Assembly (NCBI GenBank): GCA_944332265.1
Contig: CALVJQ010000002.1
Span: 652 to 64,651 of the forward strand
Direction: 5' to 3'
Source: an uncultured Bacilli bacterium
Lineage (GTDB): Bacteria > Bacillota_I > Bacilli_A > RF39 > UBA660
Length of the DNA: 64,000 bases
A program made the position numbers and the translations under genes. Below are positions 35,417 to 51,716 of the stretch, piece by piece. The notes below the pieces were generated by a model. It made no database searches. It saw nothing but the letters and a program-made list of their open reading frames with translations, and was not told where the DNA came from. Within the stretch, counting starts at the first letter, position 1. Each line of letters opens with the position of its first letter.

Positions 35417-36178
35417 TTACTTACTTTCTCCTTGGTTTTCTTCTGTAGCAACAACTTCTTCAGCAGTAGTTTCTTCTACTGGAGTAGTGTTTTCTACAAC
35501 TTCATCAACAACTGTTTCATCTTCGTAAGAAAGGATTTCTTTTGCTTCAGCAGCACCTTTCTTTTTAGTAGCAGTTCTAATTAAAACTAAAGATTGTTTA
35601 GCTCCTGGAATATTTCCACTAACTAAAATATAATTTTCAGCAGCATTTACTTCGATAATTTCTAGGTTTTGGATTGTTGTTGTTTCAACACCCATGCGAC
35701 CAGGTAATTTTTTACCTTTAAGAACACGCATTGGTCTCATTGTACCCATTGAACCTGGTCTTCTGTGATAACGTGAACCGTGTGCCATAGGGCCTCTTGA
35801 TTGGTTCCAACGTTTAATAACACCTTCGGTACCTTTACCTTTACTTGTACCTGTTACGTCAACATATTCACCAGCAGCGAATACATCAGCGCCAATAGTA
35901 TCTCCTAAGTTATAAGTACCTTCGTAATTACGAATTTCTTTTAAGTAGCGCTTAGGAGTTGTATTTGCCTTTTTAGCATGACCAATACTAGCTTTGCTAG
36001 CATTTTTTTCTTTCTTGTCTACTGTAGCTAGTTGAATTGCGTTATAACCGTCTTTTTCAGTTGTTTTGATTTGTGTAACAACATTTGGTTCAACTGAAAC
36101 AACTGTTACAGGGACAAGTTTTCCATCTTTTGTAAAGACTTGAGTCATTCCGACTTTACGTCCTAAGATTCCTTTCAT
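35417..36178 (-). CDS. rplC: 50S ribosomal protein L3 (with about 40-aa acidic C-terminal extension)
   Basis: L3 sequence over 210 aa, then a Glu/Thr/Val-rich tail. Confidence 0.93.
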
Positions 36179-36202
36179 TTTCTTACCTCCATATTATTTT
36201 CA

Positions 36203-36508
36203 TTATTTTATGTTAATAGCAACACCACTTGGAATATCTAAGTGAGCAAGTGCTTCAACAGTTTCTTTTGTTGGGTTTTTAATATCTATAAGTCTCTTGT
36301 GAGTACGACTTTCAAATTGTTCTCTAGAGTCTTTGTATTTGTGTACAGCTCTTAGTACAGTGATTTTTTCTACTTCAGTAGGTAGTGGCACTGGACCAAC
36401 AACTTCTCCCCCAGTTCTTTTAACAGTTTCAACAATTTTTCCGCAAGCTAGATCTAATAGTCTATGATCATAAGCTTTTAGAGTGATGCGAACTTTGTTA
36501 CTTGACAT
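36203..36508 (-). CDS. rpsJ: 30S ribosomal protein S10
   Basis: S10 sequence. Confidence 0.95.
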
Positions 36509-36642
36509 TTTATGTCCTCCCTTCGTCTATATCTAGTATAGACTTGCTCCGTAATGAATTCCCCGACTTTTTTGGATAGTTATTTAACAACCTTTCCTAG
36601 TGTATCGGCAACCTCACACATCTAAGCAGTCATACGTTTTTA

Positions 36643-36671
36643 ATTATAGCAACAATGTCCGATAAATGCAA
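36643..36671 (-). promoter_or_regulatory. sigma-A promoter of the S10 operon (TTGCAT-17-TATAAT) with about 125-nt structured leader
   Basis: Hexamers read on the minus strand with an exact 17-nt spacer; a GC-richer leader follows, a candidate L4 autoregulatory leader. Confidence 0.5.
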
Positions 36672-36699
36672 GGAAAAGTTTAGTTTTTTGTAAAAAAAA

Positions 36700-36724
36700 T
36701 ATTACACACAAGATGTAATATTTA
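36700..36724. terminator. bidirectional hairpin ATATTACA-CACAAGA-TGTAATAT with flanking A/T runs (gpmI terminator)
   Basis: Read in the sequence; overlaps the gpmI stop. Confidence 0.45.
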
Positions 36725-38227
36725 TTTTTTACTGATTAAAATATCTGATTCTTTCATTTCTTTAGGAATCGCAATATCCATGTATTTTAGAAGAGTTGGA
36801 GCAAAACTAGTTAATATTCCATTATTTAGCTTGCATTTTTTATCCATTATAATAAATGGTACAGGACTTAATGTATTTTTAGTTATAATATTATTATTTC
36901 TATCAATTATTGTATCGGCATTAGCATGACTTGAAATAATAATAACTTTATAAAAGTTTTCTTCAGCTACTTCAATAATTTTACCTAAGCAAACATCTAT
37001 AGCTTGAAGACCGTTAATTGTTGCTTGATAATTGCCGGTATGACCTACTTCATCAGGATTGGCGAAATTAGCTAAAATAAAGTCATAATCTTTTTCCATA
37101 CATTTAATAATTGTTTTAGCAACTGATAATGAGTTCATTTCTGGTTTTAGATCAAAACTATCTACAGTTGGAGAATCAATACTATAAATATCGCAATTTT
37201 CAAGTTTTAAATATCTTTTACCATTTAGATAATAGCTCATTGAACTAGTTTTTATGCTTTCATAGATATGGGCTTGGGTTAATCCTAGTCCAGCTAAATA
37301 TTCTGGGAGTGAATTTTTATTTTTGGGCATTTCAAAAAAATAATTGTTATTCAATCTTTTATCTATTTCAAATAGACTATAAACTCTAATATTTATTTGA
37401 TAATTATTAAATTCAATAAAATCTTTATTACAAATAGAATCTAATATTTGAAGTTGATTTTCTTTACTAAAATTTAAAAATATTAAAACATCTTTACTAT
37501 CAAGTGATTGAAAATCATCTGTTTTTAATGGGGGCAAATATTCATCTGATAATTTTTTTTCATAACATTTTTCAATCACGCGTGGAAGATTTTTAGCATC
37601 GATACCACGACCGTCAAAAAGAAGATCATAATACATCTTTGTCCTTTTATAGTCTTTTGTATCATCTAAAGCATAATAACGTCCACAAACAGATGCTAGT
37701 TTTATATTATTATGAATATTATTTTCTATATCTTTTAAATATTTGTATATTTTATGTTTATCGGAATCGCGGCCATCAGCGATTAAGTGAAGAAATACAT
37801 TGTTTTCTATCTTATCGTGTTGAATAGTATTTAAGAAACATTTTAAATGATTTAAGTGGGAGGATACTCCACCATCTGATAGCAAATGAATTATATGAAG
37901 ACTTTTATTTGGATAGCTATGAAGATAATCTATCATTTCGTTATACTTAGGATTATATTTTAAACGTTCTCTTTTAAATACTTCATTTATTTCATCTAAA
38001 GGATTTTCTATTTGACGGCCTGTACCGATTATTTCATGTCCTAATTCACTACTACTACATTGTTTTTCAGGCAAGCCAATGGAAGGACCGCTGGCTTTTA
38101 ATAGACAATGGGGATAGTTGTTCCAAATATTGATGAAATTATTCATTCCGGCATTTTTAATAGCGTTACCATAAATATCTTCACGCATACCAAAGCCATC
38201 TAATATAATTGTTAAAATCTTCTTCAT
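36722..38227 (-). CDS. gpmI: 2,3-bisphosphoglycerate-independent phosphoglycerate mutase
   Basis: iPGM motifs (ILDGFG, HLLSDGGVSSH, ADGRD, SHANAD); ATG at 38227 (MKKIL...) with AGGAG 7 nt upstream. Confidence 0.88.
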   Translation of the reverse strand: MKKILTIILDGFGMREDIYGNAIKNAGMNNFINIWNNYPHCLLKASGPSIGLPEKQCSSSELGHEIIGTGRQIENPLDEINEVFKRERLKYNPKYNEMIDYLHSYPNKSLHIIHLLSDGGVSSHLNHLKCFLNTIQHDKIENNVFLHLIADGRDSDKHKIYKYLKDIENNIHNNIKLASVCGRYYALDDTKDYKRTKMYYDLLFDGRGIDAKNLPRVIEKCYEKKLSDEYLPPLKTDDFQSLDSKDVLIFLNFSKENQLQILDSICNKDFIEFNNYQINIRVYSLFEIDKRLNNNYFFEMPKNKNSLPEYLAGLGLTQAHIYESIKTSSMSYYLNGKRYLKLENCDIYSIDSPTVDSFDLKPEMNSLSVAKTIIKCMEKDYDFILANFANPDEVGHTGNYQATINGLQAIDVCLGKIIEVAEENFYKVIIISSHANADTIIDRNNNIITKNTLSPVPFIIMDKKCKLNNGILTSFAPTLLKYMDIAIPKEMKESDILISKK

Positions 38228-38263
38228 ACACATACTCCTAATAACATAATAGCACAAGAAAAA

Positions 38264-38294
38264 AAGAAATTATAGAGGACACGCATAATTTCTT
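38264..38294 (-). terminator. intrinsic terminator/attenuator AAGAAATTAT-N11-ATAATTTCTT plus U7 between the spo0A-like gene and gpmI
   Basis: Perfect 10-bp stem; the T-run on the minus strand ends about 30 nt before the gpmI start. Confidence 0.4.
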
Positions 38295-38299
38295 TTTGT

Positions 38300-39058
38300 T
38301 TAATATATAGTTCTTCCTTCTTCTATCATTAATTTATCTACAATGATAGCAATAAATTCACCATTAGTTGGCTTTGTTTTATAGTAATCAACACAATTAG
38401 AAAAAAGCTCGTTAGAATATTCGTAATTACCTCTATCCCAACCAGTCTCAATTGCACTTCTTATAGACCTTTCAATACAACTTTCTTTTTTGGAAAAAGA
38501 TTCTGCTAGCATAGGATATATTTCTTTTGTGATTGACGTTAATAATGATGGTTCCATATAACATTCATATATTGCCTTTCTAAGATAATGAAAACCATTC
38601 TTATCAGGAGCTATACCTAATTTTTTCAATATTTCAGCAACTTTATCGTATATTGATATTTTATGAAAATTATATTTTTCCTGTTTATTTTTTATTTCTT
38701 TTAAAGATATTATTAATTCATTTATTTTATAATTCTTAGGAATAACATTAAATATTTGATAATTAGAAGCTGCTAGATTATAGCAATCTAGTCTTATATT
38801 ATCAATAATAATTGTACGTGATAGAAGAACTTCATTTTTATAATTCATTAACAATTCTAAAATGTTTTCTCCTGGAATAGTTCCATCAACTAATATTGCA
38901 TCCAAGTCATCACTACTATTGATAATTTGTAGTGCGTCTTTGTAATTATCTGCTGTATATTTTATTGTTATTTCTGTTGTTCTAGATGTTATTTCTTGCT
39001 TAAGTTTGTTCGCTTCTTCGTTACTACATACTACCAATGTATTCATATTATTTTTCAT
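38300..39058 (-). CDS. spo0A: Spo0A-family response regulator (receiver domain plus Spo0A_C DNA-binding domain)
   Basis: C-terminal 110 aa closely parallel B. subtilis Spo0A_C (HYLRKAIYECY...ITKEIYPMLAESF...CIERSIRSAIETGWDRGN...KPTNGEFIAIIVDKLMIEE). The receiver has Asp in 'AILVDGTIPG' and Lys in 'VIPKNY', but an N-terminal 'SNEE' replaces the usual DD. Confidence 0.75.
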   Translation of the reverse strand: MKNNMNTLVVCSNEEANKLKQEITSRTTEITIKYTADNYKDALQIINSSDDLDAILVDGTIPGENILELLMNYKNEVLLSRTIIIDNIRLDCYNLAASNYQIFNVIPKNYKINELIISLKEIKNKQEKYNFHKISIYDKVAEILKKLGIAPDKNGFHYLRKAIYECYMEPSLLTSITKEIYPMLAESFSKKESCIERSIRSAIETGWDRGNYEYSNELFSNCVDYYKTKPTNGEFIAIIVDKLMIEEGRTIY

Positions 39059-39128
39059 GTTCCTTTTTCTCTTTCTATGTTTTTAGTTTAAATTATACTT
39101 ACTTGGTATTATGTACTATTTTGTCGAC

Positions 39129-39854
39129 TTAGATATTTTTTTGAATTTTTTGATAAATATATTCTACTTCGCTACTCTCTTTTGAGCTTTCTCCTAAAAC
39201 AAAGCCATCTAATTCATCTATTTTAACTAACTCATCTATATTATCTTCGTTGACACTACCTCCATATAATACTGGAAGTTCTAAATTATACTTTTCTTTT
39301 ATAATACTTTTAATTTCTTTTATACGGATTGTTATTTCTTCATTACTAGGAATTATTCCCGTACCTATTGCCCACCTAGGTTCATAGACTATTATCATTT
39401 TTGTTCTTTTATAGTCAGGGACTTCATCTATTATAGTTAGAAGTTGTTTTTTTAATCTTTTATTAATTTTTAATTTATCTTTTTCTGTTTCGCCAATAAA
39501 ATAAATTGGTTTTATATGACTATGATATGATTTTTTTATTTTAGATATTATCATTTTATTATTTTCTAACAATAATTTTCTTCTCTCACTATGTCCTACT
39601 AAAGCATATTTGACATTTATTGATTGTAATTGATTGGCTGTTGTCTCTCCTGTATAAGAACCTTCTTCAAACATTGAAACATCTTGACTTCCTAAAGAGT
39701 AATTGGGACTTTGAAAAAGGTATAAAAAAGGCAACGACGGGCAAATAATTAATTCGATAGTAGGTATTGTAAGTATTTTTGATATTTCTTTTTCATATGA
39801 TTTTAATTCGTCTTTAGTTTTATTGGCTTTTAAATTGCAAACTAAATATTTCAT
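39129..39854 (-). CDS. tpiA: triose-phosphate isomerase
   Basis: Motifs NLKAN, ALVGHSERR, YGGSV; overlaps the pgk stop. Confidence 0.85.
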   Translation of the reverse strand: MKYLVCNLKANKTKDELKSYEKEISKILTIPTIELIICPSLPFLYLFQSPNYSLGSQDVSMFEEGSYTGETTANQLQSINVKYALVGHSERRKLLLENNKMIISKIKKSYHSHIKPIYFIGETEKDKLKINKRLKKQLLTIIDEVPDYKRTKMIIVYEPRWAIGTGIIPSNEEITIRIKEIKSIIKEKYNLELPVLYGGSVNEDNIDELVKIDELDGFVLGESSKESSEVEYIYQKIQKNI

Positions 39855-41044
39855 TTGTCACTATCTGGAATATTATCAATAGCTGGTAATCCACCTTGGA
39901 TTATATATTCTAACGTTGCTCCTCCTCCGGTAGATAGGAAGTTGAAACGAGTTTCTAATTTGAAATGTTTTACTGCACTTACACCGTCGCCACCACCTAC
40001 TACTTTAACGGCATTGCTGGCTGTTATTCTATTTAGTAGTTCTCTTGTTCCAGTTGCAAATCTTATATCTTCGTATTTACCTGCTGTTCCGTTTACAAAT
40101 ATTGTTTTTGATTGTTTAATAATTTCATCGTATTTATCGATTGTTTTCATGCCAATATCAAAAATTATATCATCTTCGGCTACTTTATTAATGTTAACGT
40201 GTTCTACATAGTTTTCATCATATACACGGCCGACAATAGCATCTACTGGAAGCATTATTTTATCTTTATATTTAATTAATATTGTTTTTATTCGATTCAT
40301 TATATTTGGATCTTTAGTTCTTAAAGAATTACCAACGTTAAAACCTAAAATGGCCAAGCATGAATTGGCAATACCACCAGTTAATAGCAGCTGATCACAT
40401 CTTGGAAGAAGTGATTCAATTAATTCTACTTTATCTTCTACTTTGGCACCACCCATAACAATAGTAAATGGATGAGCAGCATTCAAAATATAAGTATCAA
40501 GCATTTCTACTTCGTGTTGAACTAAAAAGCCGATACAACTAGGAAGAAATTTAGCTACTCCATAAGTAGATGCATGTTTACGATGAGCAGAGCCAAAGGC
40601 ATCTAGACAGAAGATATCGGCAAGTCCTGCCCAATACATAGCTAGTTGGGTATCATTTCCACTTTCTAAGTTATTAGGAACATCTTCAAATCGGGTATTT
40701 TCTAAAACAATTATTTCCCCAGGATTCATATTCTCTATTTTTGCCTCAAGGTATAAACTCCTTGGTTGTTTAGAAAAAATAACTTTAGTATTTACCAATT
40801 TTTGGAGATGGGCAGCAATAGGAGCAAGTGAGTTCTTGGCTTTATCTTCTTCTTTTTTTACTTTACCAAAATGGGAAAGAATTATTATTTTAGCTCCTTC
40901 TTTAATTAAGTAATCAATTGTATTTAAAGCAGCTACTATTTTGCTATCATCAAGAATTATATTGTCTTTTACTGGAACATTAAAATCACATCTTAATAAT
41001 ACTCTTTTATTTTTGACATCCATATCTTGAATTCTTTTTTTCAT
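39851..41044 (-). CDS. pgk: phosphoglycerate kinase
   Basis: 397 aa with typical PGK N- and C-domain motifs. Confidence 0.93.
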   Translation of the reverse strand: MKKRIQDMDVKNKRVLLRCDFNVPVKDNIILDDSKIVAALNTIDYLIKEGAKIIILSHFGKVKKEEDKAKNSLAPIAAHLQKLVNTKVIFSKQPRSLYLEAKIENMNPGEIIVLENTRFEDVPNNLESGNDTQLAMYWAGLADIFCLDAFGSAHRKHASTYGVAKFLPSCIGFLVQHEVEMLDTYILNAAHPFTIVMGGAKVEDKVELIESLLPRCDQLLLTGGIANSCLAILGFNVGNSLRTKDPNIMNRIKTILIKYKDKIMLPVDAIVGRVYDENYVEHVNINKVAEDDIIFDIGMKTIDKYDEIIKQSKTIFVNGTAGKYEDIRFATGTRELLNRITASNAVKVVGGGDGVSAVKHFKLETRFNFLSTGGGATLEYIIQGGLPAIDNIPDSDK

Positions 41045-41136
41045 ATCATCACCTCTTTTATTATAAAATACTTATAATTGGACTTCAATTTCTTAAATAT
41101 TCCTTTACATAAAAAAGTGCCTTATAGACACTTTAA

Positions 41137-42150
41137 TTATTTATTAACATTCATCAACTTTTTAGCTGTACGCATCATTTGTGCTGTATAACCCATTTCA
41201 TTATCATACCATGCTATTATTTTTACAAGTTGACGACCTTCACTTTCTAGGACATTAGTTAATAAACCATCTACCAATGCTCCTGTTTTCTTACCTAAAA
41301 TATCACTAGATACAACTGGATCCATTGTGATTTTTAAGGTCTCATTTTGGTTGTTAGTAAACAATGTGTTTATTTCTTCAATTGTTGTATTTCTCTTTAA
41401 TTCTAAAGTTACATCTACAACTGAACCATCTGAAACAGGAACACGGAAGGCATTACCATCCATTTTACCTAAAAGGGATGGAATAACTTTGCCAATAGCA
41501 CTTGCTGCTCCTGTTGAAGCAGGAACAATATTCATGGCACATGCACGTCCACGGCGAGCTTTTATTCCTTTTTTGTGGGGAATATCTAGTGTTGCTTGAT
41601 CGTTGGTGTAGGCATGAACAGTAGTCATATATCCTTTTACAATACCAATATTATCTTCAATTACTTTTAAGACAGGCGCTAGACAGTTAGTTGTACATGA
41701 AGCAGCAGAAATAACTGTTTCACTACCATCTAATGTATCAGAATTAACATTATATACTATAGTCTTCATTTCGCCTTTTCCAGGAGCTGATATAATTACT
41801 TTCTTAGCACCAGCTTCTATATGCTTTGATGCATCTTCTAAACTAGTAAATAGACCTGTACATTCTAAAACTACATCAATGTCTAAATCTCTCCAAGGTA
41901 AATTGGCAGGGTCTTTTTCGCTATACACTTTTATTCTTTTAGTACCCTTAATAACTATTTCATCGCCTTCAAAATCGATGATATCCTCATGAAATGAACG
42001 ATGATTAGTATCATACTTTAACAGATATGCTAAAGTTTCCGCATCTGTTAAATCGTTTATTGCTACGATATCAAAATCACTTCCTGTTATCATTTCTCTA
42101 AATGCAAGACGTCCGATTCTTCCGAATCCATTAATTGCTACTTTTATCAT
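41137..42150 (-). CDS. gap: glyceraldehyde-3-phosphate dehydrogenase
   Basis: NGFGRIGR Rossmann motif and ASCTTN catalytic Cys motif. A terminator-like hairpin plus U-run lies between gap and pgk (41100..41130). Confidence 0.95.
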   Translation of the reverse strand: MIKVAINGFGRIGRLAFREMITGSDFDIVAINDLTDAETLAYLLKYDTNHRSFHEDIIDFEGDEIVIKGTKRIKVYSEKDPANLPWRDLDIDVVLECTGLFTSLEDASKHIEAGAKKVIISAPGKGEMKTIVYNVNSDTLDGSETVISAASCTTNCLAPVLKVIEDNIGIVKGYMTTVHAYTNDQATLDIPHKKGIKARRGRACAMNIVPASTGAASAIGKVIPSLLGKMDGNAFRVPVSDGSVVDVTLELKRNTTIEEINTLFTNNQNETLKITMDPVVSSDILGKKTGALVDGLLTNVLESEGRQLVKIIAWYDNEMGYTAQMMRTAKKLMNVNK

Positions 42151-42164
42151 TTTATCTCCTCTTT

Positions 42165-43835
42165 CTATTTATATGTTTCAAATGAACTTTTACCAATAAA
42201 TTCACGTAGGATTGAATCATCACCAACATAATCTGATGGAATTGGGTAAAAACCACGAAGTGAATTAATTAAACGACGGGCTTCGTTGTATGCTGATGAA
42301 TTACTTTTTACAGAATATAATAATGGTTCAACAAAGACTTTTAAGACTCCAACTTCATAAACTAGCGATGTATTAACAATTTTATTTACGTTGTTAATAT
42401 ATGGAAAAATATATTTTTCTTCGCCACTACGAACGGAATTCCAATAATTTATTGTTTCACCAACATCGGTTGCACGTGTACGATTGTCACGAACTATGCG
42501 ACGCATTAAACGTAAGTCGGTTGTTGAAATGTAATTATGACGATCAACGTTTATTGGAATAAATGGACTTAGATATACTTTATATTTTAGTGTTGGATCT
42601 AAATCAGGAGTCATCGCATCATTTAGACAATGTAATCCTTCCATTAAGATAATGGCATTTTCATTTAATTTAATCGGTTCATTATTAAATTCTTTTTCTC
42701 CAGTAACAAAATTATATTCTGGTAAATCAACTTTTTTACCTTGAATCAAATCTTTTAATTGCTTGTTAAGTAATTTTAAATCTAAAGCTTCTAAGCATTC
42801 AAAATCGTATTCGCCATCTTCCTTTTTAGGGGTATCTTTTTTATTTTTAAAGTAGTTATCAACTGATATAACTAAGACTTCATACCCTCGACTACGTAAT
42901 TGTAAAGCTACTTTTTTAGTTGTTGTTGTCTTTCCTGATGAGGAAGGTCCTGCAAAAAGAACATATTTTGCACCCTTTTTTACTATATCATCTACTAAGT
43001 CATGAATTTGATTACTAAAGTTTGTTTCAACTAATTTTATTAAATCTTCTATCTTACAATCTGACACTTGACGATTTAGATCTGGTATATATGGAATACC
43101 TAAATCTTTAATCCATTTTTTCCCTTCTTCAAAACACTTTATGACATTTTGATAATGGATATATTCTGGAACTTTAAACTTTGAATTAGGGGAAGGAAAT
43201 AGTAGGACTAATTTATTATCTCCTAAAAAGACTAAATCATATTTATTTAAGCAGCCTGTTGAATAAGGCATTTCAGAATAAAAATAATTTATATAATTAC
43301 GTAATTTGTAAACTGTTACAATGTTATTAGTTAAATTATGAATGTTTTGAGCTTTTTCTGGAGCTTTTACTTTATTGTAATAATTAATTGCTTCTTTCTT
43401 TTCAACATTTAAATTGTAAATTCTTTCGTCATTAGCAATTATTTCATTCATCTTAGTTTTTAGTTTTTTGGCATCTGTTAAAGTAAACTTTTTATCACAG
43501 ATTATTGTCATGTGTATACCATTAGCAATAGAATGATCAAATGTTACTTCATAACATAAACCAAAAGTTTCTTTTAAAGCTACTTCTGTTACAAATTCTA
43601 AACCATATTTATTAATTTTATATCCATTAGTAGATGTAACATCAATGAATTCTAGCTTTGTTGCACGATTTATTTTTGTTTCCATTGGAACTGTTTCATT
43701 ATCAATCTCTGCTCCTACTATATTATAGGGCATTTTAGATTTATATAATTTACTTAATTCATATATAGTTGTTCCTTTTTCGACTTCGATAACAGTTCCA
43801 TCATTAAAAGTTACGTTAGTTCTATTTGTTGCCAT
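42165..43835 (-). CDS. uridine-kinase/PRK-family nucleoside kinase with N-terminal TGS/ThrRS-like domain
   Basis: N-terminal ThrRS-like TGS segment, P-loop 'VLFAGPSSSGKTTT' and PRK-like core; 556 aa. Confidence 0.6.
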   Translation of the reverse strand: MATNRTNVTFNDGTVIEVEKGTTIYELSKLYKSKMPYNIVGAEIDNETVPMETKINRATKLEFIDVTSTNGYKINKYGLEFVTEVALKETFGLCYEVTFDHSIANGIHMTIICDKKFTLTDAKKLKTKMNEIIANDERIYNLNVEKKEAINYYNKVKAPEKAQNIHNLTNNIVTVYKLRNYINYFYSEMPYSTGCLNKYDLVFLGDNKLVLLFPSPNSKFKVPEYIHYQNVIKCFEEGKKWIKDLGIPYIPDLNRQVSDCKIEDLIKLVETNFSNQIHDLVDDIVKKGAKYVLFAGPSSSGKTTTTKKVALQLRSRGYEVLVISVDNYFKNKKDTPKKEDGEYDFECLEALDLKLLNKQLKDLIQGKKVDLPEYNFVTGEKEFNNEPIKLNENAIILMEGLHCLNDAMTPDLDPTLKYKVYLSPFIPINVDRHNYISTTDLRLMRRIVRDNRTRATDVGETINYWNSVRSGEEKYIFPYINNVNKIVNTSLVYEVGVLKVFVEPLLYSVKSNSSAYNEARRLINSLRGFYPIPSDYVGDDSILREFIGKSSFETYK

Positions 43836-43970
43836 ATAATCCCTCTCTTATTCTAAAATAATTATACTATAAATCATTATTTTTTGTTACAAAAATTAAA
43901 GATATTTAATTTTTAGTTTATTTTATATAGAACAATATTATGTTATAATGCTAGAAATGGAGGAACTTTA

Positions 43971-45344
43971 ATGAAGAAAAAAATTGGCTTTAGTATTATT
44001 GCTTTAATAGTAATAATTCTTGGTATTTATGTCACTTATGTTAATTTTAAATTTCCACCTTATGTAACTAATATTGAAATTAATGAATCTAAACGATTTG
44101 ATAATCAAGTTATTTTTAATATAGAAGTTAAGAGTCATTTATTGAAAATTGATAAAACAACATGGTGTTTATTAAGTATTAATGATAATTTACCTAAGGA
44201 AGATGATGACGGTTGGATTAAAGCAACAAATGGGTATTGTTCTTTTACGGTAGAAGATGGAGAATATAATATTTTTGTTAAAGATAGTTTAGGTAATATT
44301 GTCAATGCTGATAAACAAAAAGTTAATATTGATAAAATATTAGAAATTAAACCTAGTAAAAACATATTTTATATGTGGAGAGGAATGGAGCAAAAACTAT
44401 CTTATGAAATAGTTAAGTTAGGTAATGTTAAAGATAATATAAAAATGACATCAGCTAATGATAAGATAGCTTCTATTAGTGAAAATGGAATAATTACTGC
44501 TAATAATTATGGAACAACTACTATTTCTTTAACTAGTGAAGATGGAGCTTTAAGTAAAGTTAAAATAATTGTTAGTCCTTTTATTACTAAGCCGGTTGTT
44601 AATACTAAGAAAAGCTATATAACATGTAAACAATTTAATTTAGAGGAAGCTAATTTAATTGATGAAATATTATTTGATAGAATAGATGACGCAGGATATG
44701 GAACTAGGGCTGGTGTAGTAGCTGCTGCACGTTTTATTACTTTGGAATTTGCTTATCGTATACATTATTTTTATGAAAATGGACGTTTAAATAATTATTC
44801 TCCTTATAAACATGTTGATGGAGAGGGACGATATTATCACAGAGGTTTATATTTAAATGAAAGCAAATTTGCTGATATAACAGCAAGTTTTGTTGGACCG
44901 GCAATTTGGGGATGCGATTTACAAAATTATACTGATTGGGGACCTTATGTTACTGGTAAATATTATCCAAACGGGCTTGATTGCTCTGGCTTTGTTACAT
45001 GGGCTTTATTAAACGGAGGTTTTGATGTTGGAGATATTGGTGCAGGAGCCAATGCTAATCATAATGATTTAGATGATTTGGGTGAAAAAGTTATGATTAC
45101 TAATGAATTAATGAACTCCGGTAGAGTTAAAGTTGGTGATTTAATTGGCCTTAATGGTCATATGGCTATTTTAGCTGGTTGGGATGATAATAATTATTAT
45201 ATTGCTGAATCTCTTAATACTACTGGTGGAGTAGTAATGACCGTAGTTAAAAAAAGTAATTTAGTGAATAATAGTATATATGATTATATTATATTAATGG
45301 ATGAAGTTTATAAAAAAGATGGTAATTTATCTAATATGTGGTAA
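43971..45344 (+). CDS. signal-anchored NlpC/P60 (C40) cell-wall peptidase with Ig-like (Big_2) domain
   Basis: N-terminal TM helix; a Big_2-like segment around 'TANNYGTTTISLTSEDG'; catalytic Cys in 'LDCSGFVTWAL' and His in 'GHMAILAG'. Confidence 0.7.
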   Translation: MKKKIGFSIIALIVIILGIYVTYVNFKFPPYVTNIEINESKRFDNQVIFNIEVKSHLLKIDKTTWCLLSINDNLPKEDDDGWIKATNGYCSFTVEDGEYNIFVKDSLGNIVNADKQKVNIDKILEIKPSKNIFYMWRGMEQKLSYEIVKLGNVKDNIKMTSANDKIASISENGIITANNYGTTTISLTSEDGALSKVKIIVSPFITKPVVNTKKSYITCKQFNLEEANLIDEILFDRIDDAGYGTRAGVVAAARFITLEFAYRIHYFYENGRLNNYSPYKHVDGEGRYYHRGLYLNESKFADITASFVGPAIWGCDLQNYTDWGPYVTGKYYPNGLDCSGFVTWALLNGGFDVGDIGAGANANHNDLDDLGEKVMITNELMNSGRVKVGDLIGLNGHMAILAGWDDNNYYIAESLNTTGGVVMTVVKKSNLVNNSIYDYIILMDEVYKKDGNLSNMW

Positions 45345-45372
45345 AAAGAAGTGCTATTTGGCACTTCTTTCT
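45345..45372. terminator. bidirectional terminator AGAAGTGCxxxxxxGCACTTCT between the NlpC/P60 gene and whiA
   Basis: Read in the sequence. Confidence 0.45.
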
Positions 45373-46286
45373 TTGTGTTTTTCGACTAATTTTTTTACTT
45401 TAATAAAATAATGATTTATTCCTGACTTACCTATTTTACGGCCAGTTTCTGTAGATATAATATCGGCCAATTCCTGAAGGGAAGTTTCAGGATATGCTTC
45501 ACGATATTTAATTGCTGATTGAACGTTTTCATCTAGTAAACCAAGAAGGTCGTGCTCTTTTATATAGTTTATGTCATCTAATTGTTTCAAGCCAGTTTTT
45601 AAAACTTTTTCTTGATTAGCAATTTCACAGTTATTTAAGCGATTAACCATATTTTTATGATCACGGTATATACGAATATCTTCAAAATAAAAGAAACAAT
45701 TGGTTGCACCAAATAAGCGAATTAACTCGCTTATCATTTCAGCACTTTTTATATATGTCATATAGTTATTATTTCTTTTAATTACTTTGGCAGTTATATT
45801 ATAGCGCTTTAATAATTTAGCAAGAAATAAACCCTCTTTTTGGGTTGAGGTATTGAATTCTAAATGATATCCTGCTTTACTTGGATCATTGATACTACCA
45901 CAGGCAAGAAATGCTCCTTTAAGAAAAGAAGTTAACTCTTCTTGACTATTTAGAAAATATTCTTCCGGTAGTATTTTTTTATTATTTTTAATAATGCTTA
46001 AGGATTCAAGTATAGTATCCACTTTTTCGTTTATTTCTAATATATAGATTTGTTTTATACGAAATCGTTTTTGGTTACGAATAGTTATTTTAATATTAAC
46101 ACTAAAATTATTTTTTATATCTTTATAGATTCTTCTAGCTACTGAGGCATTTTCCATAATAAGTGCTATCTTATCTTTTTTTATACGAGCAGAGAATCTA
46201 ATAAATGATGATAGTTCAACTAGTGATTCTAATACGGAGATATCATTTTTAGTTATTTCTTCTTTTAATCTTGTTGTAAAGGTCAT
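45354..46286 (-). CDS. whiA: DNA-binding cell-division/sporulation regulator WhiA
   Basis: 310 aa; degenerate LAGLIDADG-like N-domains plus C-terminal HTH; conserved position downstream of yvcK. Confidence 0.8.
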   Translation of the reverse strand: MTFTTRLKEEITKNDISVLESLVELSSFIRFSARIKKDKIALIMENASVARRIYKDIKNNFSVNIKITIRNQKRFRIKQIYILEINEKVDTILESLSIIKNNKKILPEEYFLNSQEELTSFLKGAFLACGSINDPSKAGYHLEFNTSTQKEGLFLAKLLKRYNITAKVIKRNNNYMTYIKSAEMISELIRLFGATNCFFYFEDIRIYRDHKNMVNRLNNCEIANQEKVLKTGLKQLDDINYIKEHDLLGLLDENVQSAIKYREAYPETSLQELADIISTETGRKIGKSGINHYFIKVKKLVEKHKERSAK

Positions 46287-46287
46287 T

Positions 46288-47235
46288 TTATTCGTCCTCT
46301 ATTAAGTAAGAAAATATTAGATAAGCAGTTTTAAGGGAATTGTGTCTTACATAACCTTCTTCAACTTTGAATAATTTTTCTTCTAAAACTTCAACCCCCA
46401 TATTTTGTAGAGTTTTATTATCAACAGCTACAGGATCTTTACCTTCAGATTTAGCTAGTAAAGACATATTTTTAGGAATTTTAGAATTATTAGCAATAAC
46501 AGCATTAATAGTTCCAGCTCCTAAATATTTTTCTAAGAAATTAATATGATCACTAACTTTAAAATTATCTGTTTCTCCTGGTTGAGTAAGCATATTACTT
46601 ATATACATTTTACGAGCTTTGGAGTTTTTAATAGCTTCTTGAATTTCGGGAATAATAATATGAGGTAGAACACTTGTTAATAGAGATCCCGAACTAAAAA
46701 TAATTAAATCGGCTTTTTTAATTTCTTCTAATACTTTTGGTGTAACTTTAACTTTTTTACTATATTTTAAGTCAACGACTTTTCTTTTTGATTCTGTTAT
46801 TTGGGCTTCACCTATTATTTCATATCCTTCTTTTGTAATACCGACTAAATCAACATTATCTTCTGTAATAGGAAGAAGTTTTCCTTTGACATCTAATAAA
46901 TCACATAATATTGGCAATGAATGAGCAAAATCACCTTTCATTTCTAATAGGGCTGTCATTATTAGATTTTTAATAGAATGGTTTCCAATACTACTATCAT
47001 TACTAAAACGATAGTTAAATAATTCTTTTACTCCTTTAGATTCTGTAGACATTGCCATTAATACTTTAGTTATATCCCCAACAGCGGGAATTGAAAATTC
47101 TTCACGAAGACGGCCTGTACTTGTCCCATTGTCAGACATACTTACAACTGCAGTTATATCCATAGGAAATTGAATCATTCCTTTTAACAATTGTGACATT
47201 CCACTTCCGCCACCAAATATTACAACTTTTTTCAT
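46288..47235 (-). CDS. yvcK: YvcK/CofD-like gluconeogenesis-morphology factor (UPF0052)
   Basis: MKKVVIFGGGSGMSQLLKG...; ATG at 47235 with GGAGG 7 nt upstream. The track's longer ORF begins upstream of the SD. Confidence 0.8.
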   Translation of the reverse strand: MKKVVIFGGGSGMSQLLKGMIQFPMDITAVVSMSDNGTSTGRLREEFSIPAVGDITKVLMAMSTESKGVKELFNYRFSNDSSIGNHSIKNLIMTALLEMKGDFAHSLPILCDLLDVKGKLLPITEDNVDLVGITKEGYEIIGEAQITESKRKVVDLKYSKKVKVTPKVLEEIKKADLIIFSSGSLLTSVLPHIIIPEIQEAIKNSKARKMYISNMLTQPGETDNFKVSDHINFLEKYLGAGTINAVIANNSKIPKNMSLLAKSEGKDPVAVDNKTLQNMGVEVLEEKLFKVEEGYVRHNSLKTAYLIFSYLIEDE

Positions 47236-47300
47236 AATATAACCTCCATTAAATATTATGATAACACATTTATTTAACTTGTAATAATAAGTTATAAAGT

Positions 47301-47490
47301 AATTGACAAAATACGACATTTTAAAACAATTTATGACAATATTAGACAATATATGACTAATATAGACTATTTATGACAATAAAAGACTAAATACGATATT
47401 TTATGACATTATTAGACATTTATCGACTATTATAAACATAATTAGACTTATTACGACATAATTTGATATTATTCGACAAATTTCGACAAT
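47301..47490. repeat. array of 19 consecutive, exactly phased 10-bp units, consensus (A/T)T(A/T)NGAC(A/T)(A/T)T
   Basis: Unit sequence: AATTGACAAA ATACGACATT TTAAAACAAT TTATGACAAT ATTAGACAAT ATATGACTAA TATAGACTAT TTATGACAAT AAAAGACTAA ATACGATATT TTATGACATT ATTAGACATT TATCGACTAT TATAAACATA ATTAGACTTA TTACGACATA ATTTGATATT ATTCGACAAA TTTCGACAAT. Two units contain a perfect Spo0A box (TTCGACA = TGTCGAA). Confidence 0.7.
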
Positions 47491-47520
47491 ATAAAAAGAA
47501 AAAAAGAAGGTTTAACCTTC

Positions 47521-48741
47521 TTATCCTCTAGTAGTCCACTTCCAGCCTTTGCTACTTTTTAAACCTGATATTGATTGTACAGCGGTTGCTCCAGTATTAG
47601 CTTTAAATTTGTTCCATTGACTTCTACCACTTTCAGAGAAGAAGTAACCATAAGAAATAGCGTAATGTAAGTGAGCTCCATAAGTACAATAATCATATCC
47701 TCCAGAAAGGGCATGAGAAGTTGAATAACCACCAACAGTTCCAATTACTTGACCTTTAGTAATTTTTTGACCAGATGAAACTTTAATACTTAATAAATGG
47801 GCCATTTCTACAGTGTATTTTTTACCATCTACTAAAGCATGCATGTATACAATATTTCCACCACAATCTGTTTTACGAGCTACGTAAATAACAGTTCCGT
47901 TAGCTGGAGCATATACTGGTGTTCCCTCTGGATTACCACCTAGGTCCATACCGGCATGACTTTTTTTGTAAGCTTGCGTTACTTTTCCTTTGGTTAATGG
48001 ACGAGAAAATGAACCTGAACCTTCCATTTTAGAGAAGTAACAAACTTCTACATCATCATTATCTTTACAACCTGCTTCTTCAAATAGTTTAATCATATTT
48101 TTTTGAGCTTTAATTTGGTCTGCAAAACCCATACCTATACTAGCTTGTTTATCAACATATTCGTGAAGTTCTTCTAATTGCGTTTCATAAGAAGCAATTG
48201 AATTTGTTAAAGTAACGTTGTCTTCTGCTAATTTAACTTGTAATTTTTCATTTTCTTCTATTAGGACATCTAAGCTATCAAGTTGTTCTTGAGTATAGTC
48301 TACAACTTGTTCAACTACTGCTTGTCTTTCCATCATTTCTGAAATACTTGTTGCGGAGAATATATAATCCGTATAAACTTCATCAGGATTTAAATTAGAA
48401 TATTGTAAAGATACTAAAACATCTTTCATTTCTTCTTGTTTTATTTTTATTTCTTCTTGGCTTTCAGCAACTTTCTTTTTAGCATCTTCGACACGTTGTT
48501 CATTTAGAATGATTGTGTTATTGGCATCTTTTATAGCTTGAGATTTTTTTTCAATATTTTGCTTTGCTTCATTTGTTAAAGCATCTGCTTCAGCTTTTTG
48601 ACTTTCTAGTTCTGCTACTTTATTTTTGTAATCGATTAATCTTTCCGCTTTGACTTCTTTGACTTTGAATGGACATGTTGTAACAAAAACAATAGCAAAT
48701 ATTATAAACAGATTAATTATTTTTTTTGATTTCTTTATCAT
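47521..48741 (-). CDS. EnvC/PcsB-like coiled-coil M23 peptidase (FtsEX-associated)
   Basis: Signal peptide, a long coiled coil, and a C-terminal M23 domain (HxxxD ... HLHYAIS); it overlaps ftsX upstream. Confidence 0.7.
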   Translation of the reverse strand: MIKKSKKIINLFIIFAIVFVTTCPFKVKEVKAERLIDYKNKVAELESQKAEADALTNEAKQNIEKKSQAIKDANNTIILNEQRVEDAKKKVAESQEEIKIKQEEMKDVLVSLQYSNLNPDEVYTDYIFSATSISEMMERQAVVEQVVDYTQEQLDSLDVLIEENEKLQVKLAEDNVTLTNSIASYETQLEELHEYVDKQASIGMGFADQIKAQKNMIKLFEEAGCKDNDDVEVCYFSKMEGSGSFSRPLTKGKVTQAYKKSHAGMDLGGNPEGTPVYAPANGTVIYVARKTDCGGNIVYMHALVDGKKYTVEMAHLLSIKVSSGQKITKGQVIGTVGGYSTSHALSGGYDYCTYGAHLHYAISYGYFFSESGRSQWNKFKANTGATAVQSISGLKSSKGWKWTTRG

Positions 48742-51353: not shown

Positions 51354-51716
51354 GTGATAAAAATGGATGGTAATTATTACCAAAATCCAACGTTTCCATC
51401 ATTAAATGATAAGAAGGATAATTTTTCTTTTGAAGAAGGATACCAAGCAGGACAATTAGCTGATATACCTATGCAACAAAGTTATATTGAAAATATTTTA
51501 AGACATAATAAAGGGAAAAAAGTTAAGGCTTATGTTAGTTTTCCTGATGCTAAAGATTGGAAAGATAAAGTCTTTGAAGGAACTATAGAACAAGCAGGTA
51601 GAGATCATTTAATTATTCGTGATTATCAAAATGGACATTGGTATTTAATTTTGATGATATATTTGGATTATGTTGAGTTTGATGAAAAAATTGATTATAC
51701 AGAAAACAAGTTTTAA
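51354..51716 (+). CDS. GerQ-like spore-coat protein family candidate
   Basis: C-terminal segment 'YIENILRHNKGKKVKAYVSF...GTIEQAGRDHLIIRD...WYLILMIYLDYVEFDE' resembles the conserved GerQ/YwdL core as I remember it. GTG start after AGAGGTGA. Confidence 0.35.
   Translation: MIKMDGNYYQNPTFPSLNDKKDNFSFEEGYQAGQLADIPMQQSYIENILRHNKGKKVKAYVSFPDAKDWKDKVFEGTIEQAGRDHLIIRDYQNGHWYLILMIYLDYVEFDEKIDYTENKF

What the first reader, a model, noticed from the sequence alone, without database searches (positions are those of the whole stretch)
38300..39058. Spo0A ortholog embedded in the glycolytic gene cluster, with an atypical acidic pocket
The C-terminal 110 residues match the Spo0A-specific DNA-binding domain almost motif-for-motif, including the helix that recognises the 0A box and the KPTN(S/G)EFIA segment. 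The N-terminal receiver retains the phospho-acceptor Asp and the conserved Lys, but its first acidic pair is 'NEE'. Genomically it sits between tpiA and gpmI, in a gap-pgk-tpiA-X-gpmI arrangement. In that arrangement Firmicutes normally have no gene there, and spo0A normally follows spoIVB/recN. It has its own downstream hairpin terminator only about 30 nt from gpmI, and a 6/7 0A-like box (TGTCGAC) in its upstream region. Together with the GerQ-like gene this argues the organism can sporulate, and it links the master sporulation regulator physically to central glycolysis.
Basis: partly seen in the sequence, partly recalled or inferred. Interest (0 to 1): 0.6.

Follow-up and report, generated by a model that had tools for sequence, protein, structure and literature searches.

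The report
Spo0A ortholog with a decayed phospho-switch
This is the real spo0A gene (the master switch for spore formation) of an uncultured gut bacterium of the order RF39. It sits at that lineage's usual spo0A position beside glycolysis genes, but the part of the protein that normally receives the activating phosphate has lost most of its catalytic residues, so the switch is probably operated some other way.

Summary
The ORF at 38300-39058 (-) is real. It encodes 252 aa with a full-length Spo0A_C DNA-binding domain (Pfam 1e-32; model TM 0.88 to 1FC3/1LQ1).

The N-terminal domain has a receiver fold but is degenerate:
- Pfam REC scores 16.9 bits against a 30.2 cutoff, and TIGR02875 scores 127 against 200.
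- Asp58 and Lys108 are kept.

The organism is Candidatus Coprovivens (order RF39). The order gap-pgk-(tpiA)-X-gpmI-rpsJ holds in 18 species and in relatives only 35-43% identical. It also holds in sister lineages whose gene passes the Spo0A equivalog cutoff. The window gene is therefore the positional ortholog of spo0A, not an orphan.

Receiver decay runs through the clade:
- Syntenic orthologs carry H, Y or E at the phospho-Asp position.
- One ortholog is a 121-aa DNA-binding domain alone.
- 73 of 119 sister-clade representatives have Ser, Asn, Glu or Gly there.

Both domains are under purifying selection. The gene has its own conserved terminator and a conserved upstream TGTCG (0A-box core). 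No 0A box is conserved at the neighbouring glycolytic promoters. A GerQ equivalog is present, but sporulation competence remains unproven.

The parts
38300..39058 (-). spo0A positional ortholog (252 aa): degenerate receiver-fold N-domain plus Spo0A_C DNA-binding domain
   Evidence: ORF. Pfam, NCBIfam and PDB matches. AF2 model. Synteny with equivalog-level Spo0A.
38675..39058 (-). N-terminal receiver-fold domain (residues 1-128). Cys11-Ser12 replace the Asp-Asp pair. Asp58 occupies the phospho-acceptor position. Asp86 replaces Thr/Ser. Lys108 is kept. Helix alpha4 is almost absent.
   Evidence: Pfam REC 16.9 bits, below the 30.2 cutoff. DSSP and pLDDT of the model. Foldseek receiver hits with TM 0.64-0.76. 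Alignments. dN/dS 0.05-0.15.
38318..38644 (-). Spo0A_C DNA-binding domain (residues 139-247). Recognition-helix residues E196, R197 and R200 are invariant.
   Evidence: PF08769 1e-32. 1LQ1/1FC3 by sequence and TM 0.88 by structure. Invariant columns. dN/dS 0.006-0.03.
39122..39128 (+). 0A-like box TGTCGAC (GTCGACA on the gene strand), abutting the tpiA stop codon. The TGTCG core is conserved. Proposed autoregulatory operator.
   Evidence: The core carries G2, C4 and G5, the base-specific contacts of the 0A box (PMC3485338).
39108..39114 (-). Conserved ACATAAT at a fixed 8 nt downstream of the box. Either a -10-like element or a second, 10-bp-phased half-site (ACA).
   Evidence: Alignment A3.
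39068..39079 (-). Conserved CATAGAAAGAGA just upstream of the start codon (ribosome-binding region).
38256..38295 (-). Intrinsic terminator of the gene: a 10-11 bp AT-rich stem (AAAGAAATTAT / ATAATTTCTTT) followed by a U-run.
   Evidence: Fold -13 kcal/mol, z = -2.6. Conserved in 17 loci with 2 compensatory pairs.
38246..38256 (-). Conserved extended -10 promoter TGTGCTATTAT for gpmI, directly after the terminator.
   Evidence: The same architecture is present in L021, L024 and L027.
36722..38227 (-). gpmI (2,3-bisphosphoglycerate-independent phosphoglycerate mutase). This is the most constant neighbour of spo0A across the clade.
   Evidence: Pfam. Adjacency.
39129..39854 (-). tpiA, the upstream neighbour. 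No terminator lies between it and the spo0A ortholog.
   Evidence: Pfam and terminator scan. tpiA is absent at this position in L008 and L013-L016.
51363..51716 (+). gerQ (spore coat protein GerQ equivalog). The only sporulation-specific marker in the window besides spo0A.
   Evidence: PF09671 8.7e-34. TIGR02728 109.7 bits, above the 88.95 cutoff.
47301..47490 (-). Nineteen tandem 10-bp units with a (T)GTC core, starting with two perfect 0A boxes (47482-47488 and 47472-47478). The array lies upstream of yvcK(cofD)-whiA. Candidate multi-site target of the protein (speculative).
   Evidence: Strain polymorphism of 19 vs 12 units. A shorter version in L001 only.

Best explanation
The gene is the vertically inherited spo0A of an RF39 lineage (Candidatus Coprovivens). 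In this clade spo0A sits immediately upstream of gpmI and the S10 ribosomal operon, usually after gap-pgk(-tpiA).

Shown:
- The C-terminal domain is an intact, very strongly constrained Spo0A DNA-binding domain. The residues E196, R197 and R200 of the recognition helix are unchanged.
- The N-terminal domain keeps a CheY-like fold and is under purifying selection.
- That domain has lost both Mg2+-binding aspartates (now Cys11-Ser12) and the Thr/Ser (now Asp86), and its alpha4 region is remodelled.
- In this genus the gene has its own conserved terminator and a conserved upstream TGTCG element.

Inferred:
- The DNA-binding domain recognises 0A-type boxes (TGTCGAA, core TGTCG / GACA), probably as head-to-tail oligomers on sites phased 10 bp apart.
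- The protein is no longer switched by His-Asp phosphotransfer. The receiver-like domain acts as a constitutive oligomerisation or regulatory module. Asp58, Asp86 and Lys108 may form a fixed charge network.
- The conserved TGTCG element about 70 nt upstream of the ATG is an autoregulatory operator, so activity is set mainly by how much protein is made. Read-through from pgk-tpiA is possible because no terminator precedes the gene.
- The likeliest output is still entry into a reduced sporulation programme. This rests on the GerQ equivalog in the window and on the sporulation genes reported for RF39 genomes.
For: Identity:
- Pfam Spo0A_C 1e-32.
- PDB 1LQ1/1FC3, E about 2e-23.
- AF2 C-domain TM 0.88 and N-domain receiver hits TM 0.64-0.76.

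Orthology:
- Identical gene order in 18 species-level genomes and in relatives of 35-43% identity.
- The same position is occupied by two-domain Spo0A scoring 203-218 bits on TIGR02875 (cutoff 200). One of these is named Spo0A by PGAP.

Receiver decay:
- REC 16.9 bits, below 30.2, and TIGR02875 127 bits, below 200.
- None of the 120 listed family representatives carries a precomputed PF00072 hit, whereas nearly all sister-clade representatives do.
- Signature in 118 family representatives: Cys at the first Asp, no acid at the second, Asp at the Thr/Ser position.
- Syntenic orthologs have His (P0128) or Tyr (P0130) at the phospho-Asp, and Glu occurs there in P0143, a clade member on a contig too short to show synteny.
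- L018 has a 121-aa stand-alone DNA-binding domain at the same place.
- The sister clade has Asp at the phospho-acceptor in only 46 of 119 representatives (Ser 35, Asn 35, Glu 2, Gly 1).

Selection:
- dN/dS is 0.05-0.15 for the N-domain and 0.006-0.03 for the C-domain.

Cis elements:
- The conserved CGACA (reverse of TGTCG) covers G2, C4 and G5, the bases Spo0A contacts specifically (PMC3485338).
- Related boxes lie upstream of the canonical-type orthologs. In L029 there are three GACA at exact 10-bp phase, the only such run in 506 kb of loci and absent from 20 shuffles.
- The terminator and the gpmI promoter are conserved.

Sporulation context:
- GerQ equivalog.
- RF39 genomes are reported to keep many sporulation genes (PMC10868615).
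- RF39 ASVs were transferred to chicks together with spore-forming taxa (PMC7028958).
Against: - Asp58 is invariant (118/118) and Lys108 nearly so (114/118) in this family. An acidic residue at position 15 is kept in 109/118. A remodelled but still phosphorylatable pocket is therefore not excluded.
- The rest of the genome could not be searched for a second spo0A, for histidine kinases, or for the sporulation sigma factors.
- One predictor assigns RF39 MAGs 0% sporulation probability (PMC12536801).
- The upstream box is absent in the more divergent orthologs (L020, L021, L024), where the gene follows pgk by only 30-50 nt. Autoregulation is therefore not a clade-wide feature.
- Cluster representatives are not phylogenetically independent, so the 73/119 figure overstates the number of independent losses.
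Confidence: 0.6

Rival explanations
1. It is a conventional, phosphorylation-controlled Spo0A. Asp58 is still phosphorylated by an orphan kinase or a small-molecule donor. Glu14/Glu15 and/or Asp86 supply the metal-binding carboxylates that Cys11-Ser12 no longer provide.
For: Asp58 is 118/118, Lys108 is 114/118 and an acidic residue at position 15 is 109/118 in the family. The receiver fold is retained and under purifying selection. Clostridial Spo0A proteins are phosphorylated directly by orphan kinases (textbook knowledge).
Against: Both canonical metal-binding Asp positions lack a carboxylate in every family member. Asp at the Thr/Ser position would sit where the phosphoryl oxygens go (receiver-domain chemistry, inference). 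Positional orthologs lack the Asp, the Lys or the whole domain, yet keep the DNA-binding domain and the locus. The REC profile score is far below threshold.
Confidence: 0.2
2. The lineage no longer sporulates. The protein is a repurposed, constitutively DNA-binding regulator of vegetative functions, for example cell-envelope or division genes such as yvcK-whiA, whose upstream region carries the 10-bp array.
For: Spo0A is encoded by many non-spore-formers (bioRxiv 10.1101/2022.02.25.481979). SpoMAG predicts 0% sporulation for RF39 MAGs. RF39 is reported to lack spoIIAB and spoIIE. The array of 19 phased (T)GTC units, starting with two perfect 0A boxes, lies upstream of yvcK-whiA.
Against: A GerQ equivalog is kept intact in the window, and the identical sequence is indexed in 482 blocks of the contig collection. 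RF39 is reported to keep spoIIGA, spoIIM, spoIIP, spoIIQ and spoIIIAH. RF39 transfers along with spore formers. The array is confined to this species and its closest relative, so it cannot explain conservation of the protein across the clade.
Confidence: 0.13
3. It is a regulator of central glycolysis, a functional stand-in for CggR, which explains its place inside the gap-pgk-tpiA-gpmI cluster.
For: Position between glycolytic genes is conserved over a very wide divergence. No cggR-like gene heads the cluster; a PRK-family gene does. In basal relatives the gene lies 30-50 nt after pgk and is probably co-transcribed with it.
Against: No conserved 0A-like box was found upstream of the PRK-gap, pgk, gpmI or rpsJ units in 19 aligned loci. 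The neighbours have their own conserved promoters and terminators. In L029 the upstream glycolytic genes are replaced and only the spo0A-gpmI-rpsJ linkage remains. No sugar-phosphate-binding domain is present.
Confidence: 0.05
4. It is a decaying relic of spo0A with no remaining function.
For: The receiver motifs are degenerate, and domain loss occurs in relatives.
Against: The ORF is intact in all 18 genome loci and in over 200 protein clusters. dN/dS is 0.006-0.03 (C-domain) and 0.05-0.15 (N-domain). The C-domain is more conserved than the neighbouring TpiA and GpmI.
Confidence: 0.02

Closest known systems
Spo0A of Bacillus subtilis / Geobacillus stearothermophilus / Clostridioides difficile (TIGR02875; PDB 1LQ1, 1FC3, 1QMP)
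   Same: Same two-domain layout. The Spo0A_C domain is about 41-43% identical and superposes at TM 0.88. The ER..R recognition-helix residues and the KPTN.EFIA segment are kept. A 0A-type box lies in its own upstream region, as for B. subtilis spo0A.
   Different: The receiver lacks the Asp-Asp pair (Cys-Ser) and the Thr (Asp), and alpha4 is almost missing. It falls below the Pfam REC and TIGR02875 cutoffs. The gene lies next to gpmI and glycolysis genes instead of after spoIVB/recN. Five family-specific invariant cysteines are present.
Atypical / aspartate-less receiver (ALR) response regulators (ChxR, HP1043/HsrA, Streptomyces BldM, WhiI, GlnR; PMC4395418)
   Same: A receiver fold is retained while phosphorylation-site residues are lost. 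The expected behaviour is phosphorylation-independent DNA binding, often as constitutive dimers. Orthologs of this gene with Ser, Asn, His, Tyr or Glu at the phospho-Asp meet the strict ALR definition.
   Different: The window protein itself keeps the phospho-acceptor Asp, so it is not an ALR in the strict sense. The output domain is Spo0A_C rather than OmpR or NarL type. No natural Spo0A of this kind was found in the searchable literature.
Constitutive Spo0A forms made in the laboratory (isolated C-terminal domain; receiver deletions such as sad67)
   Same: The isolated DNA-binding domain binds legitimate Spo0A targets without phosphorylation (PMC3485338). The 121-aa natural protein in L018 is the equivalent of such a construct.
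   Different: These are natural, conserved genes. In the window protein the N-domain is retained and under selection rather than deleted.
CggR, repressor of the gapA operon in Bacillus
   Same: A transcription factor encoded within the central glycolytic gene cluster.
   Different: Unrelated fold (SorC/DeoR family). CggR heads the operon and has operators at the gapA promoter. No operators were found at the glycolytic promoters here.

Membership tests
Spo0A (sporulation transcription factor, TIGR02875 equivalog) | C-terminal Spo0A-specific DNA-binding domain (PF08769) | tested here: met
   1e-32, 112.7 bits, full profile length. 1LQ1/1FC3 E about 2e-23. TM 0.88.
Spo0A (sporulation transcription factor, TIGR02875 equivalog) | Whole-protein score at or above the curated equivalog cutoff (200 bits) | tested here: not met
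   127.4 bits. Syntenic sister-clade proteins score 203-218.
Spo0A (sporulation transcription factor, TIGR02875 equivalog) | N-terminal phospho-accepting receiver with the Asp-Asp / Asp / Thr(Ser) / Lys signature | tested here: not met
   PF00072 scores 16.9 bits against a 30.2 cutoff. The signature is Cys-Ser / Asp58 / Asp86 / Lys108.
Spo0A (sporulation transcription factor, TIGR02875 equivalog) | Orthology (descent from the lineage's spo0A) | tested here: met
   Same position next to gpmI-rpsJ as equivalog-level Spo0A in L027, L029 and L030. Synteny across 18 genomes.
Spo0A (sporulation transcription factor, TIGR02875 equivalog) | Binds 0A boxes (TGTCGAA) | tested here: inconclusive
   Recognition-helix E196, R197 and R200 are invariant. 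A conserved TGTCG lies upstream of the gene itself. No binding assay is possible.
Spo0A (sporulation transcription factor, TIGR02875 equivalog) | Required for, and activated at, entry into sporulation through kinases or a phosphorelay | not testable with these tools
   Only 64 kb of the genome is available. A GerQ equivalog is present. The literature on RF39 is split.
Aspartate-less / atypical receiver response regulators | CheY-like receiver fold retained | tested here: met
   The AF2 N-domain has pLDDT 83-95 over residues 1-80 with beta-alpha alternation. Foldseek hits to AdeR, ArlR and Spo0F receivers have TM 0.70-0.76.
Aspartate-less / atypical receiver response regulators | Phospho-acceptor Asp replaced (strict ALR definition) | tested here: not met
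   Asp58 is present and invariant in the family. The criterion is met in relatives P0128 (His) and P0130 (Tyr), which are syntenic, in P0143 (Glu), and in 73/119 sister-clade representatives.
Aspartate-less / atypical receiver response regulators | Other phosphorylation-pocket residues lost (atypical response regulator in the broad sense) | tested here: met
   Both metal-binding Asp residues and the Thr/Ser are replaced.
Aspartate-less / atypical receiver response regulators | Activity independent of phosphorylation | not testable with these tools
   Needs in vitro phosphorylation and DNA-binding assays.
CggR-type central glycolytic regulator | SorC/DeoR-type sugar-phosphate-binding regulator with operators at the gap promoter | tested here: not met
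   No such domain. No conserved box at the PRK-gap, pgk or gpmI promoters.

The most novel reading that the evidence does not exclude
In this RF39 lineage the universal phospho-switch of the sporulation master regulator has been replaced by a different input.

All five cysteines of the protein (Cys11, Cys92, Cys166, Cys194, Cys222) are invariant in the family. Cys11 sits at the first metal-binding Asp position, Cys92 is in the beta4-alpha4 loop, and Cys194 replaces the Arg before the ER of the recognition helix. Each replaces a residue that is itself conserved in canonical relatives. Together they could form a thiol, metal or Fe-S (redox or oxygen) switch.

Protein level would be set by autoregulation and by read-through from the glycolytic pgk-tpiA unit.

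The protein would polymerise head to tail on 10-bp-phased (T)GTC sites. The extreme example would be the strain-variable array of 12 or 19 units upstream of yvcK-whiA.
Probability: 0.15. Interest if true: 0.85.

Novelty: new variant of a known kind. Interest (0 to 1): 0.62.

Why it matters
Every studied spore former decides to sporulate through the level of phosphorylated Spo0A. Genome surveys also use the presence of spo0A as the first marker of sporulation potential.

A whole group of abundant, uncultured gut Bacilli (RF39 and allies) carries a spo0A whose receiver has lost its phosphorylation chemistry to varying degrees, down to complete loss of the domain, while the DNA-binding domain stays under very strong constraint.

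If these bacteria do sporulate, they must trigger it without the classical phospho-switch. If they do not, spo0A has acquired another essential role in a reduced genome.

Either answer bears on three things:
- how sporulation is predicted from MAGs, since the two published predictions for RF39 disagree;
- how response regulators evolve after they lose their kinases;
- how these unculturable organisms are transmitted between hosts.

It also gives concrete, cheap experiments: protein phosphorylation, EMSA on its own promoter, and metagenomics of the resistant fraction.

Tried and rejected
- **0A boxes at neighbouring promoters.** I looked for conserved 0A boxes upstream of PRK-gap, pgk, gpmI and rpsJ in 19 aligned loci. 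None was found, so direct control of glycolysis is not supported.
- **Terminator scan.** The scan reported nothing between the gene and gpmI because the stem is AT-rich. Folding and comparative analysis showed the hairpin is real.
- **Rfam over 36000-48000.** No family reached its gathering score, so neither the 10-bp array nor the intergenic elements are a known RNA.
- **10-bp array in other species.** It is present only in the window species and, shorter, in L001. It is therefore not a clade-wide target.
- **Whole-genome sporulation inventory.** The supplementary tables of PMC10868615 held no family-level entries for CAG-1000. The listing of cluster members gave no organism names.
- **GerQ look-up.** The first look-up failed because the listed ORF starts at an upstream GTG. 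It succeeded from the ATG.
- **Sigma-factor assignment of the upstream motif.** Reading TCGACA-N8-CATAAT by eye as a -35/-10 pair or as a sigmaE/G/K promoter gave no convincing fit. Activation versus repression is left open.
- **Internal promoter-like site.** The site at 38805-38777 (11 of 12 matches) was rejected. Such matches occur at chance frequency here (53 found, 51.8 expected), and no in-frame start would give a complete C-domain.
- **C-domain NJ tree.** It grouped the pseudo-receiver proteins but did not resolve their relation to the canonical-type clade. Synteny was used instead.
- **Model coordinates.** They were not available, so distances in the remodelled pocket and between the cysteines could not be measured.
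Full report
**1. What is at the coordinates**

The ORF at 38300-39058 on the minus strand is 252 codons long and starts with ATG.

- Residues 140-243 match Pfam Spo0A_C over the whole profile (1e-32, 112.7 bits).
- They also match the solved Spo0A C-terminal domains 1LQ1 and 1FC3 (E about 2e-23, roughly 42% identity).
- An AlphaFold2 model built on 19 family members has mean pLDDT 77.6. Its C-domain superposes on 1FC3/1LQ1 at TM 0.88.

The N-terminal half is modelled with high confidence (pLDDT 83-95 over residues 1-80) as alternating strands and helices. Its best structural matches are receiver domains such as AdeR, ArlR and Spo0F (TM 0.70-0.76).

At the sequence level the N-domain is not a recognisable receiver:
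- Pfam Response_reg scores 16.9 bits against a gathering score of 30.2.
- The whole protein scores 127 bits on the Spo0A equivalog model TIGR02875, whose cutoff is 200.
- NCBI's pipeline names a 93%-identical homolog only 'Spo0A C-terminal domain-containing protein'.

**2. The phosphorylation pocket**

I aligned the protein with canonical Spo0A sequences and tabulated 118 family representatives.

| Canonical position | Window protein | Family conservation |
|---|---|---|
| First Asp of the pair | Cys11 | 115/115 non-gap |
| Second Asp of the pair | Ser12 | Ser 93, Cys 21 |
| Phospho-acceptor Asp | Asp58 | 118/118 |
| Thr/Ser | Asp86 | 117/118 |
| Conserved Lys | Lys108 | 114/118 |

It is not the acidic pair, although an acidic residue at position 15 is kept in 109/118.

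Between strand beta4 (82-85) and strand beta5 (104-106) the model has only a three-residue helix where alpha4 should be. This stretch carries a family-invariant motif, DNI(K/R)LDCYNL.

From what is known of receiver chemistry (my own knowledge of the CheY family), the two Asp residues hold the Mg2+ that phosphotransfer needs, and the Thr/Ser hydroxyl binds the phosphoryl group. A pocket with Cys-Ser and Asp at those places is therefore unlikely to be phosphorylated. That step is inference, not a result.

**3. Organism and synteny**

The window has 28% G+C. The closest named genome is Candidatus Coprovivens excrementavium. GTDB places that genus in order RF39, family CAG-1000 (PMC8035907).

A scan of one genome per species found 18 loci. 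All of them have the order (PRK-like)-gap-pgk-(tpiA)-X-gpmI-rpsJ.

The same order holds for much more distant relatives, 35-43% identical:
- P0126 lies next to gpmI.
- P0128 and P0130 lie in the full cluster.

Decisively, the same position is occupied in other uncultured Bacilli by two-domain proteins that carry Pfam Response_reg plus Spo0A_C and pass the TIGR02875 cutoff:
- P0279, 218 bits, locus L027.
- P0344, 214 bits, locus L029, named 'sporulation transcription factor Spo0A' by PGAP.
- P0300, 203 bits, locus L030, which shows the full ftsX-M23-whiA-...-gap-pgk-spo0A-gpmI-S10 order.

The window gene is therefore the positional ortholog of this clade's spo0A. It is not an orphan Spo0A_C paralog. 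The glycolysis-side location is an old, inherited feature of the clade, and the spo0A-gpmI-rpsJ adjacency is its most constant part.

**4. Receiver decay is a clade-wide trend**

Among the relatives of the window protein:
- the phospho-Asp position is His in P0128 and Tyr in P0130, both syntenic, and Glu in P0143, whose contig is too short to show its neighbours, and the Lys is lost in P0126, P0128, P0130 and P0143;
- in L018 the gene between tpiA and gpmI encodes only a 121-aa Spo0A_C domain.

In the canonical-type sister clade (119 cluster representatives):
- the first Asp (118/119) and the Lys (117/119) are kept;
- the second Asp survives in only 15;
- the phospho-acceptor is Asp in 46, Ser in 35, Asn in 35, Glu in 2 and Gly in 1.

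These representatives are not independent lineages; for example, many Ser variants are about 61% identical to the query and probably form one group. Several different substitutions nonetheless imply repeated loss.

TIGR02875 scores fall in step: 203-218, then 127 for the window, then 115 to 60.

I found no description of natural Spo0A proteins of this kind in the searchable literature.

**5. The gene is functional**

Pairwise Nei-Gojobori estimates on codon alignments from the 18 loci give dN/dS of 0.006-0.03 for the DNA-binding domain and 0.05-0.15 for the N-domain. dS is near 1, so the values are approximate.

The protein is better conserved across species (67-93% identity) than the neighbouring TpiA (37-77%) and GpmI (56-88%).

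The recognition-helix residues E196, R197 and R200 are invariant in every sequence examined, canonical or not.

**6. Transcription unit and cis elements**

Downstream of the stop codon there is a hairpin (38263-38295) followed by a U-run. It folds at -13 kcal/mol, z = -2.6. It is conserved in 17 loci with two compensatory stem pairs.

Immediately after it comes a conserved extended -10 element, TGTGCTATTAT (38246-38256), and then the gpmI ribosome-binding site. gap has its own terminator, and pgk has its own TTGAAG-17-TATAAT promoter. No terminator lies between tpiA and the gene, so read-through into it is possible.

- As a single 7-mer it is chance-level.
- In the alignment of 17 orthologous upstream regions, however, CGACA (the reverse of TGTCG) is invariant or nearly invariant. 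It is followed at a fixed 8 nt by ACATAAT.
- TGTCG contains G2, C4 and G5, the bases Spo0A contacts specifically in the 0A box TGTCGAA (PMC3485338).

Related boxes precede the canonical-type orthologs:
- TTGACAgaaaTCGACAaTGTC in L027;
- TCGACA...GTCA in L030;
- three GACA at exact 10-bp spacing in L029. This is the only such run in 506 kb of fetched loci, and none appeared in 20 shuffles.

I read these as autoregulatory operators, as is known for B. subtilis spo0A. Whether the effect is positive or negative cannot be told from sequence.

The more divergent orthologs (L020, L021, L024) lack the box and follow pgk by only 30-50 nt.

No conserved 0A box occurs at the promoters of the neighbouring glycolytic or ribosomal units. 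The link to glycolysis is therefore positional, and at most one of co-expression.

**7. Sporulation**

The GerQ-like gene is real and passes the curated equivalog cutoff (TIGR02728 109.7 vs 88.95; Pfam 8.7e-34). Its exact sequence is indexed in 482 blocks of the contig collection.

No other sporulation-specific gene was found among the window's ORFs.

Published genome surveys disagree:
[quoted passage not shown] It reports spoIIGA, spoIIM, spoIIP, spoIIQ and spoIIIAH present but spoIIAB and spoIIE reduced or absent (PMC10868615).
- A machine-learning tool gives RF39 MAGs 0% (PMC12536801).
- In a chick experiment, RF39 ASVs were among the few taxa transferred from egg surfaces, together with spore-forming families (PMC7028958).

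Spo0A is also present in many non-spore-formers. I therefore regard sporulation as the likeliest output but unproven.

**8. Side observations that may bear on mechanism**

(a) *The 10-bp array.* Between the PcsB-like M23 gene and yvcK(cofD)-whiA, at 47301-47490 on the minus strand, lie 19 tandem 10-bp units with a (T)GTC core.
- The first two units are perfect 0A boxes exactly 10 bp apart.
- Another strain of the same species has 12 units, an exact 70-bp difference.
- The closest species has a shorter version, and other species have none.
- The geometry is what head-to-tail Spo0A binding would need, but WhiA or simple DNA curvature are alternatives.

(b) *The cysteines.* All five cysteines of the protein are invariant in the family. 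Each replaces a residue that is conserved in the sister clade:

| Window residue | Sister-clade residue at that position |
|---|---|
| Cys11 | Asp |
| Cys92 | Asp or Asn |
| Cys166 | Met |
| Cys194 | Arg |
| Cys222 | Ser |

The stand-alone domain of L018 has cysteines at the equivalents of 166, 198 (one helical turn from 194) and 222.

**9. Verdict**

The gene is the clade's spo0A ortholog, and its place beside glycolysis genes is conserved. It is not an equivalog-level Spo0A, its receiver is most likely not a phospho-switch, and nothing indicates that it regulates glycolysis.

It is a new variant of a known kind: Spo0A with an atypical or pseudo-receiver. It forms part of a clade-wide erosion of phospho-control in the sporulation master regulator.

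Noticed in passing
window 47301-47490 (- strand); L031 and L032 at about 5930-6175; L001 1600-1760: Nineteen tandem 10-bp units with a (T)GTC core lie between the PcsB-like M23 gene and yvcK(cofD)-whiA. The first two units are perfect 0A boxes (TGTCGAA) exactly 10 bp apart. Unit number varies between strains of the same species (19 vs 12, an exact 70-bp difference). The closest species has a shorter version and other species have none. There is no Rfam match.
   Followed up: partly
window 38300-39058 (residues C11, C92, C166, C194, C222); L018 6312-6677: All five cysteines of the protein are invariant in 115-118 of 118 family representatives. Each replaces a residue conserved in canonical-type relatives (Asp, Asp/Asn, Met, Arg, Ser). 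The stand-alone Spo0A_C of L018 keeps three cysteines at equivalent or i+4 positions. This may be a thiol, metal or Fe-S site.
   Followed up: partly
window 51363-51716 (+): A GerQ spore-coat protein equivalog (TIGR02728 109.7 bits against an 88.95 cutoff). One published survey reports gerQ as reduced or absent in RF39.
   Followed up: yes
window 39129-39854; loci L008, L013-L016: tpiA evolves much faster than its neighbours (37-77% identity across the clade, against 67-93% for the Spo0A ortholog). It is missing from its place between pgk and spo0A in five species.
   Followed up: no
proteins P0121, P0123, P0124, P0129, P0137: Public data hold proteins with three or four tandem Spo0A_C domains (394-454 aa) and one 1003-aa protein with three. 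Overall, 7307 clusters at 50% identity match this domain at E up to 0.001.
   Followed up: no
window 36509-36700 (- strand), upstream of rpsJ: The roughly 150-nt leader of the S10 ribosomal operon is highly conserved across all related loci (…GTATGACTGC.TAGATGTG.GAGGTTGCCGATACACTAGG…). It has no Rfam match at gathering threshold and may be an undescribed S10/L4 leader variant.
   Followed up: no
window 39068-39079 (- strand): A 12-nt block, CATAGAAAGAGA, just before the spo0A start codon is nearly invariant in about 14 of 17 related loci. That is more conserved than a plain ribosome-binding site would need to be.
   Followed up: partly
window 42165-43835 (-): A 556-aa PRK / uridine-kinase-family protein heads the gap unit in all related loci, at the place where Bacillus has cggR.
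   Followed up: no
window 56951-59990 (-) and 47521-49652 (-): Two adjacent paralogous LysM-G5-M23 peptidases, plus an FtsE-FtsX-PcsB-like M23 set. The lineage clearly keeps a peptidoglycan wall and its division hydrolases.
   Followed up: no
L030 9287-9859; L027 4710-5360: In canonical-type relatives, extra genes are inserted in the cluster: an HTH_3 protein between pgk and spo0A, and a 171-216-aa protein of unknown family between gap and pgk.
   Followed up: no
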